Source: Eledone cirrhosa
Taxonomy: Eukaryota
Assembly: GCA_964016885.1 (NCBI GenBank)
Contig: OZ024740.1
Location: 274,412,001-274,476,000 of the forward strand
Reading direction: 5' to 3'
Length of the DNA stretch: 64,000 nucleotides
The notes beneath the pieces are model-generated. The model was given only the letters and a program-made list of their open reading frames with translations. It was not told the DNA's origin and did no database searches. Below, one piece after another: positions 18,932 to 55,853 of this stretch (position 1 is its first letter; every line of letters begins with the position of its first letter). Made by a program: the position numbers and the translations under genes.

Positions 18932-19151
18932 GAAACTGTATGACCCTGACAGCAGAACTCAGGCCGTTTCAACGGCTATTTCTGGACTAAATTCTGAATT
19001 TAGTCCAGAAATAGCCATCGAAACGTCTTGAGCTCTGCCGTCGGGGTCATACATTTTCCTATTACCCACTCTACTACCCTAAGTATTGAGTACTCTGGTG
19101 CGTTATGGTCCATATGGTCCATCTGGTTCCTTACCACAACTCCTTCGTTTT
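18932..19151 (+). mobile_element. Hairpin-plus-tail element (family 2)
   Basis: Arms ~18937-18994 and 18996-19053, then tail attacccactctactaccctaagtattgagtact...ccttaccaca running into (TA)n. Confidence 0.85.
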
Positions 19152-19751
19152 ATATATATATATATATATGGTTAAGCTTGCTAGGTGAGTAGTGTGATTT
19201 TGGACACCCTGTGGGATGAAAAAGAAAGGACGGAAGAACTCAAGAGAGTCAATGGCCATCCAATAAAGTTTTTTTTTGTGGAGCGAGAGACTCCTTGTCT
19301 TTATTGAGATATCTCTGTCAGAGAAGGTCACTCTAATATAAAACCTGCAACTTTGTTTGCATCCAATGATGTAGACCAGTTCTTCGTTTTGGGTAAATGC
19401 ATTTGATGTCTATGCAAACCCTTTCCTCACTTAAAAAAGATTTAAGCATACACTTTTTTGTGACTCATGGCATTGCTGGCCATAGACAGGTTCCTAGCAG
19501 GTCTAGGAAGTCACGTCAGTGATGCTTATGCTTATATATCAAGCAATGGCATTACTTGAAATCAAGTTGCAGTCATGATCATCATCATATATATATATAT
19601 ATAGTATGTAGATAAATCTACCAAAATGTACGGTAGTGTCCAATCCGTATGAAGAACTCAATGTAATCCGAATATCATGAAAAGAGAAGATGTATTCAAC
19701 TTTTTTTCTTTTTTTTTTTTCCGATGAAAAATACAGGAAAACAGAGTCAAG

Positions 19752-19867
19752 ATAAATTAATAAAAATAATGAATAAAAACAAAGAAACAGTTCCTTATAT
19801 TAAAAAATGAATTTTTTAATATAAGGAACTGTTTCTTTGTTTTTATTCATTATTTTTATTAATTTAT
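19752..19867. repeat. Perfect ~57-bp-arm palindrome abutting (TA)n
   Basis: ataaattaataaaaataatgaataaaaacaaagaaacagttccttatattaaaaaat-ga-reverse complement. Confidence 0.9.
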
Positions 19868-20197
19868 ATATATATATATATATATGTGAGTTACAAATTG
19901 GCATAGCCCACATCTCTCCATCTCCCCTAACTTTTGAAGATCATGAAGCTTATGAAACTGGTAAAGTTATAAATAATTGTAAATAAACCTTCTTAAAGAA
20001 TTAAATTGCATTATCAACTTCTTTTTCCTATATTATCATCATCATCATTTAATGTCCATCTTCCACGGGTTAGATGGTTTTGTTCCATTTGATGCGGGAT
20101 TGGTCGGGAGACCATATCTCACTCGTACGGAAGTGTCTCTGACAGGTTTTTTACAGCTAAATGCCCTTCCTAACACCAACCACATTTACAGTGTGGA

Positions 20198-20300
20198 CTA
20201 TATATATATATATATATATATATATATATATATATATATATATATATATATATATATATATATATATATATATATATATATATATATATATATATATATA
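20198..20300. repeat. Pure (TA)n microsatellite
   Basis: About 50 uninterrupted TA units. Confidence 0.98.
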
Positions 20301-51948: not shown

Positions 51949-52347
51949 CGGGATAACAGATTATTGTTATAGGTAGTCCACTTAGGTTAGGGTACTCCGA
52001 GTAGTGGATGGTATCAACGCTTGGCTAAGTTTGACTCAACAAGGCGTTTCCATAGTGATGTTGCGAGTACGCGGTGATTTCTATGTTGTTTACACTTGGA
52101 GTAATGATAAATCAAGAAAGAAGAGTGACACAGTTGCTATACAAAAAAGGTTTTTAATCACATTGCTGACAATTGTTTCTCTGAACTGATGAATTGACTG
52201 GTTACAACTATGTATTGGTGATCAATTGACACGAAAACAGGCGGGTAGCGATCTCTAGACCTACCAGTTCAGAGAAACAATTGTCAGCAATGTGATTAAA
52301 AACCTTTTTTGTATAGCAAACCGTGTCACTCTTCTTTCTTGATTTAT
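51949..52347 (-). mobile_element. Hairpin-plus-tail element (family 3)
   Basis: Arms 52107-52188 and 52265-52347 (~82 bp) contain the hammerhead 3' half GAAAC-AATT-GTC; (TA)n on both sides. Confidence 0.8.
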
Positions 52348-53169
52348 ATATATATATATCTAGGGAGTGTAACTGAGACCAGCAGCCAGTGGTCAAAGGA
52401 AAGACAATCCACAAGGTGGGTAACATGCAGATGAAATATAGAAAAGATTGAAAGAGGAGGAGGAAAAGCAGAAGTGTGAGGTGCATAGAAGTGACTGGAA
52501 GAGGGAAATAACGAAAGGCAATAAACAAGACAAGTTTACATACTCACACATGTTCACCCTCATCAGCTCTCAAACCAGCAAAAAGGTTTTGCACTAATTT
52601 AATTGAGAGTACTATATTAAAATGCTGGATCATGCAACAGAAAAATAAATCTTTTTGCTGGTATGGTGTGTATGTGATAAAACAAACTGCACAATTAGAA
52701 GGACGAAAGAAAACAAAGAAAAGGAAATAATGAGATAGTGGGCCTCAAGCTGTGTGGTGTCTGTTCTAAATAGAAAGCTAATCATAGCTATGATAAAGTT
52801 AAAACAATGTTGTCTGATCGAGATGAAGAAAAAGTGTATTTCATTACATATAAAAAGGAGAAAACTTTGTGCATTTGGGTAAATTTATCTTGTACATCGC
52901 AAATGTTTAATCTAAATCAGTTTTCATCCCATAATGCAAGATAATGCAAAGACAAGGGAAGAATTGCACCGAGATATGCTAGCAACATTTTAATCAAAGT
53001 CATATATATATGTGTATGAGTGTGTGTGCATGTATAAACAAAACAGTTGACTTAAGAAGCATTGGGAAATTTGAAATGTGTGCATCTCAAAGCAAATTAC
53101 CATAATAATAGTTGAGAAAATAATAGTTGAGAAAATCAGTATTCTAAGACAAGTAAAACTTTGGACAGT

Positions 53170-54900
53170 GGCAATTTTGTCTGATTATTGAAAAAAAAAA
53201 AAACTAGGGAGCATGAAGACAAATTATTTATTGATTTTATTCATAACAAATGATGGTCAATGATGGCAGAAATGGGATTTCTTCATCATTTTATAAATTT
53301 ATTGGAGAGTATGAGAAGGATGCATCCTTTCTCAATATTTGTTTAACATCTATAGAGAAAGTTCTAGAATGTTTTCAAACTGAAGCAAGAATGGTCACCA
53401 ATCTCAGATATGCTGATTATACTGTCTTTATAACTGGTATCTTGAAGAAATTCAGAATTTTGATAAAGAATGTAAAAGAAAATGTGATGAATATGGTTTC
53501 TTTATAAATTTTAGCAAAAAGTAAATGATTATCACAGGAACATATGATCAAGATAATTCTATAACAATTTATATTCAAACTGTCAAAGTGGTGTTTGAGT
53601 TTTGCTATCTTAGAAGTATTATTTCAAATCAATGTGATGACAGTAAAGAGATGAACAGAATTGTAACTGCAAATTTTACTGCTATCTCTTTAAACTGCAC
53701 TTGGAAAGATTCATGAATAAGTAAAACTACAAAATGGAAATTGCTACAAACTTTGATAATTCTACTAAGCAATGTATGGAATCATATTTCCACTTGAAAT
53801 GTATGAAATTATATTTCCATTGGCATTGTATTAAAGGATATTTCCACTAGCAATGTATAAAATGATATTTACACTAACAATGTATGAAATAATATTTCCA
53901 TTAGCAATGTATAAAATAATATTTCCACTAGCAATGTATAAAATGATATTTTCACTAGCAAAATATGAAGTGATATTTCCACTAGCAATGTATGAAATCA
54001 TATTTCCACAATGTATGAAATTATGTTTCCACTAGCAGTGTATAAAATGATATTTCCACTAGCAATGTATTAAAGTATATTTCCACTAGCGATGTATAAA
54101 ATGATATTTTCACAAACAATGTTTGAAATTTCCACTAGCAACATATAAAATGATATTTTCCACTAGCAATGTATAAAATGATATTTCAACTAGCAAGGTA
54201 TGAAATGATATTTCTACAAGCAGTGTATGAAATGATATTTCCACGAGCAACATATGAAATTATATTTCCACTAGCAATGTATGAAATGATATTTCCACTA
54301 GCAATGTATGAAATTATATTTCTACTAGCAATGTATAGAATGATATTTCCACTAGCAATGTATGAAATTATATAACCACTAGCAATGTATGACATGATAT
54401 TTCCACTAGCAAAGTATGAAATGATATTTCCACTAGCAATGTATGGAATGATATTTCCACAATGTATGAAATGATATTTCCACAATGTATGAAATGATAT
54501 TTCCACTAACAATGTATGAAATAATTTTTTCACTAGCATTGTATGGATCTAAATGCTAGACTCTTAAAAGGCTGATGATTTAATTAAAGACAGGTCTCCA
54601 AGGTTAGTTTTTATAGAAGAAAGCTAAGAAATGGGGAAATGAAAATAGGAATGCTGTGAAGGGATTGGAGAAAAAAGAAGATATTTGGGGTGTTTCAGAG
54701 AGGCAGATTATCAATAAAAGTTACTGCTTGCAGGTAAAACCATTGAAACATGGCCATGATGAAGAACTTGAAAAAGTGGAATGATAACATCATCGAAGTA
54801 ATAATATTGAAGGTACAGCAATTAATAAGAGTAGAGGAAGATAGAGATTATTAAAGAAAAATTGTCAGACACAACAGTTAAACTGCAATAGTTGTGAGTT
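53170..54900 (+). mobile_element. Ancient RTE-like LINE interrupted by a minisatellite
   Basis: TNLRYADYT, VFEFCYLRSII, TKWKLLQTLI..., resuming as LYGSKC*TL after the array. Outer boundaries uncertain. Confidence 0.7.
53770..54546 (+). repeat. 27-bp minisatellite (~28 units)
   Basis: Unit ATATTTCCACTAGCAATGTATGAAATG; some units carry a 4-bp deletion. Confidence 0.95.
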
Positions 54901-55437
54901 ACAGGTGATGTCAATCAAATTATTATCTTGCTCTTTAAGACAAAATCAACACATTCAACTCAATAGTCTGTAGAGTTTAATGAAAGTACAATATACATTT
55001 AATTGCTACAAACGTACAATTTGTTTTAATTCTTGAATAAGCTTTTCATAGTAAAAATTTATATATATATATATATACATATATATATCATCATCATCAT
55101 CATCATCATCACCGTTTTACGTCCGTTCTTCCACGCTAGCATGGGTTTATATACATACATACATACATATATATATATATATATATATATATATATATAT
55201 ATATATATATATGTATATATATATACACACACATATATATATATATATATATATATTTATATATATATGTGTGTATATATATGTATATATATATATATAT
55301 ACATATACATACATATATGTATATATACATATATACATATATATATATACATATACATATATATATATATGTGTATATATATATATATATATATATATAT
55401 ATATATATATATAGATATATAAATATATATATATATA

Positions 55438-55853
55438 CAGGAAAAAGTATGACCCCGACAGCAGAGCTCAAGCCGTCTCAACGGCTATTTCTGGAGTAAA
55501 TTAGAATTTTTAGCCTGGAGAATAAATAGCCATTTTTTCCTATTTCCCACTCTACTACCCTAAGTATTGAGTACTCTGGTGCGTTATGGTCCATCTGGTT
55601 CCTTACCACAATTCCTTTGTTATATATATATATATATATATATATAACAAAGGAAATGTGGTAAGGAACCAAGTGGACCATAACGCACCAAAGTACTCAA
55701 TACTTAGGGTAGTAGAGTGGGAAATAGGAATGAGTAAGACCCCGACGCCTGAGCTCAAGCCGTTTCGACGGCTAATTCTGGACTCTAATTTGAGTCCAGA
55801 ATTAGCCGTTGAAACGGCTTAAGCTCAGCCGTCGGGGTCCTACTCGTTCCTAT
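55438..55853. mobile_element. Two family-2 hairpin-plus-tail elements, tail-to-tail across (TA)n
   Basis: Plus copy 55438-55622 (right arm mostly lost); minus copy 55645-55853 with arms 55724-55785 and 55792-55853. Confidence 0.88.

What the first reader, a model, noticed from the sequence alone, without database searches (positions are those of the whole stretch)
18932..55853. A ~215-bp hairpin-plus-tail mobile unit living in (TA)n whose arms co-vary within each copy
Seen: four copies (18932, 34036, 55438, 55645), each bounded by TA runs. Each has a ~60-bp-arm hairpin with nearly fixed ends (..aggaa / ttcct..) and an ~80-bp unique tail; the 55438 copy has lost most of its right arm. Differences between copies are mirrored in both arms: gctatttctgg/ccagaaatagc vs gctaattctgg/ccagaattagc; ctgtac/gtacag vs ctggac/gtccag; gcag/ctgc vs gctg/cagc; caagtaaga/tcttacttg vs tgtatga/tcataca. 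Known: PLE insertions often carry inverted terminal-repeat fragments and hammerhead ribozymes. Inference: one arm is copied from the other by fold-back synthesis on an internal stem (here followed by hammerhead-like CGAAAC), giving a non-autonomous TA-targeted retro-unit mobilised by PLE enzymes. Selection on an RNA or cruciform structure is the alternative.
Basis: partly seen in the sequence, partly recalled or inferred. Interest (0 to 1): 0.78.

Follow-up and report, generated by a model that had tools for sequence, protein, structure and literature searches.

The report
Abortive twin-primed Penelope retroelement insertions
The hairpin is the shortest insertion form of a 3.5-kb Penelope-like retrotransposon whose ends occur about 30,000 times in this genome; its two arms are likely separate DNA copies started at two fixed sites in the element's RNA and stopped at its predicted capped start, which would show how these elements make their long-unexplained inverted ends.

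Summary
The unit is not an independent non-autonomous element. It is the shortest member of a continuous series of insertions of an autonomous Hydra-clade Penelope-like element (3,531-bp tandem units, intact 717-aa RT plus C-terminal GIY-YIG ORF, (TA)n target).

Insertions end at two fixed sites 80 nt apart: A (27,330 pattern hits) and B (35,403). In a sample, 27 of 30 A ends pair with a B end and none with another A. Both arms stop 50-62 nt upstream of A (114 of 129 arms). Junctions are nearly all different (88 of 93), and the left arm is as often longer as shorter, which argues against fold-back. A non-reference G at -59, beside an initiator-like motif, outnumbers A 5,420 to 890 and occurs in both arms, as a copied 5' cap would.

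Best model: two cDNAs are primed, one from each target strand, in the mRNA leader, run off the cap, and are end-joined. CGAAAC is half of a U3-A8 hammerhead variant that is complete only in long copies. Inverted PLE ends and tails are known; the strict A/B pairing and cap-like stop were not found in my searches. No RNA data were available.

The parts
18931..19059 (+). Copy 1 hairpin: inverted arm starting at site A, junction, forward arm ending at site A (TTCC|TA). Both arms reach about -63.
19060..19148 (+). Copy 1 tail (site A to site B; leader of the PLE ORF, with a 9-nt internal duplication), followed by (TA)n
34037..34116 (-). Copy 2 tail, ending at site B against (TA)n
34117..34246 (-). 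Copy 2 hairpin; the forward arm carries the non-reference G at -59 and a short internal duplication
55440..55540 (+). Copy 3: 93-nt inverted arm running into the hammerhead loop II/stem II region, joined to a 7-nt forward arm
55541..55620 (+). Copy 3 tail, ending at site B; shares the TA run 55621-55646 with copy 4
55647..55726 (-). Copy 4 tail, ending at site B
55727..55850 (-). Copy 4 hairpin; both arms stop at -58 and both carry the non-reference base at -59, with 6 further bases between them

Best explanation
The unit is the shortest insertion form of an autonomous Hydra-clade Penelope-like element, and its two arms are likely two separate cDNAs, primed from the two cut strands of a (TA)n target at two fixed RNA sites (A and B, 80 nt apart), that would run off the predicted capped 5' end of the mRNA about 58 nt upstream of A and then be end-joined head to head. 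Shown: the parent element, the two fixed ends, their one-A-one-B pairing, the common stop zone, the extra G, and independent junctions. Inferred: GIY-YIG cutting of both strands; priming at the TA that follows each site; one RNA, or two RNAs from one source copy, as template (hence the co-varying arms); a transcription start at -58 (with others to about -63) and copying of the cap. Further inferred: priming on the downstream repeat of an uncleaved or multimeric transcript gives the long and tandem copies. The hammerhead is complete only in that downstream repeat and would cut at -17, removing its A and B sites, so cleaved mRNA could give only hairpins.
For: Parent: long copies run into an RT and GIY-YIG ORF. 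Tandem 3,531-bp units have an intact 784-codon frame that begins in the right arm, first Met giving 717 aa. The tail reads through into the ORF 359 times and ends in TA 35,403 times; A ends number 27,330. Pairing: 27 of 30 A-picked loci have a B partner, 3 have no partner found, 0 are A-A (p about 2e-7 if ends were independent). Six long insertions with both ends in view are all A/B. Two cDNAs: left longer 35, right longer 28, within 2 nt 30 of 93; L068 1464 vs 150 nt; L136 about 4.8 kb vs 0.7 kb with arms 99.9-100% identical; one copy (L048) has arms of two subfamilies. Stop zone: 114 of 129 arm ends at -50 to -62, alike for both arms; 5' ends without a left arm also cluster at 43-68; public-run contig depth rises more than tenfold at this place. 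Cap-like base: G 5,420, A 890, reference 21,641 at -59. In inspected loci 14 of 41 G cases (10 left arm, 4 right) and 12 of 20 A cases could not be read from the partner arm, leaving about a 3.5-fold excess. At junctions with inserted bases the same base follows -58 in 4 of 6 and other positions in 2 of 18 (p 0.018). -58 is the A of TCAGT/TTAGT (initiator consensus recalled). Untemplated G as a cap signature: PMC4859970. Both-strand cutting and extension and internal initiation at two sites in vitro: PMC11167929.
Against: No transcript data were examined, so the start site, cap and ribozyme cleavage are untested. Arm ends spread over about 12 positions, and most arms that reach -58 continue with a reference base (21,641); this needs several start sites plus end trimming. 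A third of the G cases (1,777 of 5,420) and 27 of 41 inspected ones can be read from the partner arm or tail. In vitro the Anolis element showed no difference in start site between strands (PMC11167929), which does not predict strict A/B pairing. Two B-B insertions (L011/L012, L067) break the rule. Two cDNAs on one RNA overlap and would need strand displacement. The hammerhead alignment shows 0 of 20 pairs with compensatory change, two of four subfamily representatives fold otherwise, and 9 of 49 motifs have a mismatched C3/A8 core.
Confidence: 0.6

Rival explanations
1. Twin priming as above, but the common stop is a roadblock (bound protein or the hammerhead stem II/loop II fold) inside a longer RNA, not a capped 5' end. 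The extra base is terminal-transferase activity.
For: The stop zone lies in stem II/loop II of the hammerhead fold. Ends are spread over -50 to -62. Full-length copies do not start preferentially at -58 (upstream extents 9 to over 1,000 nt in 20 ORF read-through copies).
Against: The extra base is specific (G over A 3.5- to 6-fold in an AT-rich genome) and position-biased to -58. It sits at an initiator-like motif. The sequence just upstream is AT-rich and weakly structured.
Confidence: 0.17
2. Fold-back: one cDNA primed at B folds on itself and copies its own strand back to site A.
For: Arms co-vary. Many junctions are near-symmetric (30 of 93 within 2 nt). The region has internal stems.
Against: Fold-back makes the left arm shorter than the right. 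It is longer in 35 of 93 short copies, by over 10 nt in 18, and by kilobases in L068 and L136. Left arms carry the terminal extra base when the right arm is shorter. Most junctions have 0-2 nt overlap, not a priming stem. It does not explain a fixed end at A.
Confidence: 0.1
3. Long inverted insertions collapse after insertion by palindrome instability to about 110 bp, with arm-to-arm gene conversion keeping the arms alike.
For: Symmetric left/right lengths and small junction deletions fit cruciform processing. Some arms show slippage deletions between short direct repeats.
Against: Near-perfect 6-kb palindromes persist (L129, L130). The same stop zone appears in copies with no left arm. Collapse would not add a specific base at one position. 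Arm-specific changes (92, 34 at CpG) outnumber shared ones (18 after removing one misaligned copy).
Confidence: 0.07
4. A self-propagating non-autonomous hairpin element (SINE-, MITE- or retrozyme-like) copied as a unit from master hairpins, possibly kept by selection on its RNA or cruciform structure.
For: Very high copy number and narrow size: 91 of 118 sampled B-ended copies are short hairpins.
Against: 88 of 93 junctions are distinct and none occurs more than twice. Arm types match those of long copies of the same subfamilies. The unit lacks the 5' half of the hammerhead. It has two unlike ends, not terminal inverted repeats.
Confidence: 0.06

Closest known systems
Hydra clade of Penelope-like elements (Craig et al. 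2021, PMC8557442), e.g. Hydra-1_Obim, Hydra-1_Amil
   Same: Single ORF with RT then GIY-YIG; RW(K/R), DKT, CxCx5C linker, CxxC-E and N-CxH motifs; (TA)n target; hammerhead near the 3' end; residue-level likeness by eye to the published sequences.
   Different: A different family. Unit 3.5 kb against generally under 3 kb. Hammerhead core U3-A8 with long helix III and loop II, whereas all listed Hydra motifs have CUGANGA. Tail 80 nt against 30-40. Tens of thousands of ultra-short inverted forms.
Poseidon PAc of Anolis (Frangieh et al. 2024, PMC11167929)
   Same: Tail defined by two internal RT start sites near the ORF start; AT-rich target; both strands cut and extended; hammerhead just upstream; uncleaved RNA is the substrate.
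   Different: There, no strand difference in start site and no model for inverted ends. Here, one A and one B end per insertion, the A end always tail-less, and a fixed upstream stop.
L1 twin priming (Ostertag and Kazazian 2001, seen as cited in PMC4859970)
   Same: Two target strands prime two cDNAs that are joined with small indels, giving an inversion.
   Different: In L1 the second primer lands at variable internal sites and the two cDNAs copy largely non-overlapping RNA (recalled). Here both sites are fixed and the cDNAs overlap, giving a palindrome.
Schistosoma Cercyon PLE hammerheads with U3-A8 core (Cervera and de la Pena 2014, PMC4209133)
   Same: U3-A8 in place of C3-G8; motifs also found in opposite-strand pairs from truncated PLEs.
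   Different: Those are minimal motifs without helix III. This one has a 5-bp helix III with a palindromic 9-nt loop.
Non-LTR retrozymes (10.64898/2026.07.22.740005, passages)
   Same: Short, abundant, related to PLE pLTRs.
   Different: Retrozymes carry a whole hammerhead in direct tandem repeats and are copied as units. This unit has half a hammerhead, inverted arms and independent junctions.

Membership tests
Penelope-like element (EN+) | Single ORF with RT and GIY-YIG endonuclease | tested here: met
   Intact 717-aa ORF with YRDD and VIY...YIG motifs, matching published Hydra proteins by eye. The top homologue carries PF01541. Pfam and PDB profiles gave no hit for the ORF itself.
Penelope-like element (EN+) | Tandem or partial-tandem units, inverted 5'-truncated copy, tail at one end | tested here: met
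   3,531-bp tandems, inverted arms, tail at the B end only.
Hydra clade | RWK and DKT motifs, CxCx5C linker, CxxC and CxH around conserved E and N, C-terminal EN | tested here: met
   RWR, DKT, CNCPDRSIC, CNLCSEE, N...CKH in the ORF against the definition.
Hydra clade | Insertion into (TA)n | tested here: met
   136 of 181 tail hits end at a TA run, 20 read into the ORF, 25 other; 35,403 genome-wide.
Hydra clade | Canonical hammerhead (CUGANGA...GAAA) | tested here: not met
   No CUGANGA motif in the unit and no Rfam hit. A U3-A8 variant with the three-helix fold is present.
Hydra clade | RT phylogeny groups with reference Hydra elements | not tested
   No tree with the published references was built; placement rests on motifs and by-eye comparison.
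Hammerhead ribozyme | Three helices around the conserved core with N7 free and a UH cleavage triplet | tested here: met
   Consensus fold. Position 7 varies while the rest of the core is mostly kept in 49 motifs. No compensatory pairs.
Hammerhead ribozyme | Self-cleavage | not testable with these tools
   Needs an in vitro assay.
Non-autonomous element (SINE, retrozyme, MITE) | Copies descend from master units and share internal junctions | tested here: not met
   88 of 93 junctions distinct.
MITE or other DNA transposon | Terminal inverted repeats at both ends and fixed length | tested here: not met
   Unlike ends; length runs from about 120 bp to over 6 kb.
Naiad clade | N-terminal GIY-YIG, CxC and DKA motifs | tested here: not met
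   The EN is C-terminal.

The most novel reading that the evidence does not exclude
One PLE protein dimer engages two fixed sites on a single RNA and primes one cDNA from each target strand, always one per site, which is the general origin of PLE inverted ends and one-sided tails. Transcription starts inside the upstream hammerhead, and the downstream hammerhead cuts off the productive priming sites. The ribozyme would then act as a switch that diverts about three quarters of events into harmless 200-bp hairpins, and the genome holds some 27,000 fossil 5'-RACE products of its own retroelement.
Probability: 0.33. Interest if true: 0.78.

Novelty: new variant of a known kind. Interest (0 to 1): 0.56.

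Why it matters
How PLEs make inverted repeats and tails, and what their hammerheads do, are stated as open in PMC8557442. This family gives tens of thousands of natural reaction products with two fixed ends, a pairing rule and a cap-like mark. It also has intact, near-identical 717-aa source copies suited to an in vitro test. Practically, such hairpins are likely to be mislabelled as MITEs or unknown repeats, and they scatter many perfect inverted repeats through the genome.

Tried and rejected
A DNA similarity search of the genome with the tail found nothing because common words are skipped; pattern searches replaced it. Rfam found no hammerhead in the window or in the full unit. Pfam and PDB profiles did not recognise the ORF or 26 homologues as RT. 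The sequencing-run search listed no RNA holder, so expression and start site were not examined; the runs laid were contigs of unrecorded type and may include the source sample. The paper on C3-G8 exchange (PMC1986816) is not held, so activity of U3-A8 cores was not checked in print. Two look-ups of earlier findings returned nothing. The first junction scripts missed left arms or were off by one base and were redone. The tandem mismatch count is invalid (one-base gap between loci) and is not used. Rejected: a stop at the hammerhead cleavage site (-17), since few arms end there and several are internal deletions; a splice acceptor at -57, since arms include the AG itself 27,951 times; Naiad, because of domain order; the window's GIY-YIG fragment at 36448-36810 as partner, at only 27% identity. 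Rows dropped: the covariation test used 71 of 104 inverted copies; the junction tests used 93 short ones; L005 was removed from the shared-variant count; loci picked for the ORF (L091-L140) were left out size classes, and loci picked for the extra base (L171-L210) out.
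Full report
Observation. An 18-nt tail motif occurs 4 times in the window against 0.10 expected. The window lies in a 3.0-Gb animal genome; I did not establish the species. A 29-mer of the tail has 28,907 exact matches genome-wide and the reversed control has none. 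Co-variation is real. In 71 of 104 inverted copies with both arms of 46 nt or more, arms of the same copy differ at 2.3 of 44 sites against 5.2 between copies (0 of 10,000 permutations). In 64 of 71 the subfamily type is the same in both arms.

Parent element. In the first 30 tail loci the 3' end was constant and the 5' side varied: hairpins of different lengths, and long copies running on upstream. Those lead through a 3' UTR into a GIY-YIG and RT ORF on the same strand. L031 is a 4.6-kb insertion with the same layout as the 215-bp unit: TA run, inverted arm, forward copy, tail, TA run. A protein search found many intact frames. Fetched copies are tandem units of 3,531 bp with a 784-codon frame that starts in the right arm; the first Met gives 717 aa. 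The tail is thus the leader of the ORF. It reads through into the ORF in 359 places and ends at (TA)n in 35,403; the tail-less end occurs 27,330 times (patterns differ in stringency). The protein has RWR, DKT, YRDD, CxCx5C, VIY...YIG, CxxC-E and N-CxH, the motifs that define the Hydra clade (PMC8557442 section 11). It resembles the published Hydra-1_Amil and Hydra-1_Obim proteins by eye. Homologues number 2,049 among 8,000 scored. Pfam and PDB profiles do not recognise it, and no tree was built.

Two fixed ends, always paired. Site A (TTCC|TA) and site B (CTTCGT|TA) are 80 nt apart, and each is followed by TA in the element. Of 30 loci picked by their A end, 23 show a B end directly, 2 a degenerate one by eye, 2 a B end kilobases away, and 3 no partner; none is A-A. 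If ends were chosen independently the chance is about 2e-7. Six long insertions with both ends in view are all A/B. Two B-B insertions are exceptions.

Not fold-back, not a master hairpin. Fold-back makes the inverted arm shorter than the forward part. Among 93 short copies it is longer in 35, shorter in 28 and within 2 nt in 30; 88 junctions are distinct and most have 0-2 nt overlap or small inserts. L068 has 1,464 against 150 nt. L136 has about 4.8 kb against 0.7 kb with arms 99.9-100% identical. One copy has arms of two subfamilies (L048). After insertion the arms mutate separately: 92 arm-specific changes against 18 shared once one misaligned copy is removed. So the arms started identical and are not being homogenised. 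Of 118 sampled B-ended copies 91 are short hairpins, 4 long inverted and 23 had no left arm detected, some through detection failure.

A common stop. Both arms end at the same template position although their primers lie 80 nt apart: 114 of 129 ends fall at -50 to -62 from A. Copies without a left arm stop there too. Contig depth from a public run rises from at most 0.27 million upstream to 2.3-3.7 million between this zone and site B, then falls to 0.03 million (run type not on record, possibly the source sample). After the A at -58 the reference base is T or C. A non-reference G occurs 5,420 times and a non-reference A 890 times; the reference base occurs 21,641 times. 1,777 of the G cases can be read from the partner arm. 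In fetched loci 14 of 41 G cases and 12 of 20 A cases could not, leaving about 3.5-fold; the G cases were 10 left and 4 right arms. At junctions with inserted bases the G follows -58 in 4 of 6 and other positions in 2 of 18 (p 0.018). -58 is the A of TCAGT/TTAGT and -62 that of TCATTT, initiator-like by recall. Untemplated 5' G is the accepted sign of a copied cap in L1 and SVA (PMC4859970 passages), and Drosophila Penelope has an internal promoter with an initiator in its pLTR (PMC2377424 passages). I infer a capped 5' end here. It is not shown, and the spread of ends needs several starts plus trimming.

Hammerhead. No CUGANGA core and no Rfam hit exist in the unit. Long copies carry UUGANAAG upstream of CGAAAC, with position 7 varying in 49 motifs. 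The consensus of 12 copies folds into the three-way junction with a GUC site at -17. U3-A8 cores are known from Schistosoma PLEs (PMC4209133, parts 1-2 of 4 read); all Hydra motifs in the published table are canonical. Against: no compensatory pairs, alternative folds in two of four representatives, and a mismatched core in 9 of 49. The inferred start lies inside loop II, so the leader, and every hairpin, has only the 3' half.

Mechanism. The endonuclease cuts both strands of (TA)n (inferred; shown in vitro for Anolis Poseidon, PMC11167929, parts 1-2 of 4 read). One 3' end primes at A, the other at B, probably helped by the TA at each site. Both cDNAs copy the same RNA or sister RNAs, hence the mirrored variants. 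On the leader they run off the cap after about 58 and 138 nt and are end-joined, giving hairpin plus tail. On the downstream repeat of an uncleaved or multimeric RNA they give long, inverted or tandem copies. Cleavage at -17 of that repeat would remove its A and B sites; this last step is the least supported.

Known and new. Inverted 5'-truncated copies, one-sided tails, (TA)n targeting and a Hydra family in an octopus are published (PMC8557442 passages, section 11 and supplement parts), as is internal initiation at two sites. That paper saw no strand difference in start site. My searches found no paper describing strict A/B pairing, a cap-like stop, or mass short hairpins from a PLE; subscription journals, Repbase and Dfam were not searchable. 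An octopus repeat annotation (PMC13282606 passages) does not mention hairpins or palindromes. Verdict: a new family and product class of a known clade, whose value is a directly testable model for an open step of PLE transposition. Interest 0.56.

Noticed in passing
window:36448-36810 (-): GIY-YIG fragment of another PLE-type element (Pfam E 2e-4, below the cut-off; 27% identity to this family's EN).
   Followed up: partly
window:21742-22998 (-), 30399-32851 (+), 48718-49890 (+), 56155-58884 (+): Several fragments of one APE-RT LINE family (RTE-like by recall), with tails ending in (GAT)n; copy 1 of the finding sits at such a tail.
   Followed up: no
window:46004-46558 (+), 50414-51382 (+): C-terminal fragments resembling restriction-like-endonuclease LINEs (recalled, untested).
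   Followed up: no
window:40161-40279 (+), 5244-5307 (+): 5S rRNA-like and tRNA-like matches just above Rfam thresholds, probably pseudogene or SINE heads.
   Followed up: no
L034:8580-9460 (+); L035:2294-3649 (-): A second Hydra-like family (42% protein identity). In L034 its 3' UTR is joined to this family's terminal module at -45, suggesting a template jump or nested insertion.
   Followed up: partly
L054 (G000:C1:14249500-14255500): A tandem array with spacing in multiples of 58 bp built partly from the tail sequence: a satellite derived from the element.
   Followed up: no
L031, L035 and flanks of L002, L003: Canonical CUGAUGA hammerheads of an unrelated abundant family.
   Followed up: no
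L129, L130, L132: Near-perfect inverted repeats with arms of 2.7-3.1 kb at about 99.7% identity (L129, L132) and little or no spacer (L130), present in the assembly.
   Followed up: partly
L032, L068, L096, L109, L112, L117: One subfamily has a mismatched C3/A8 hammerhead core (9 of 49 motifs) yet made many insertions; a natural test of whether cleavage matters.
   Followed up: no
L033:5430-9032: 45-bp-unit tandem array with open frames of over 900 codons on both strands.
   Followed up: no
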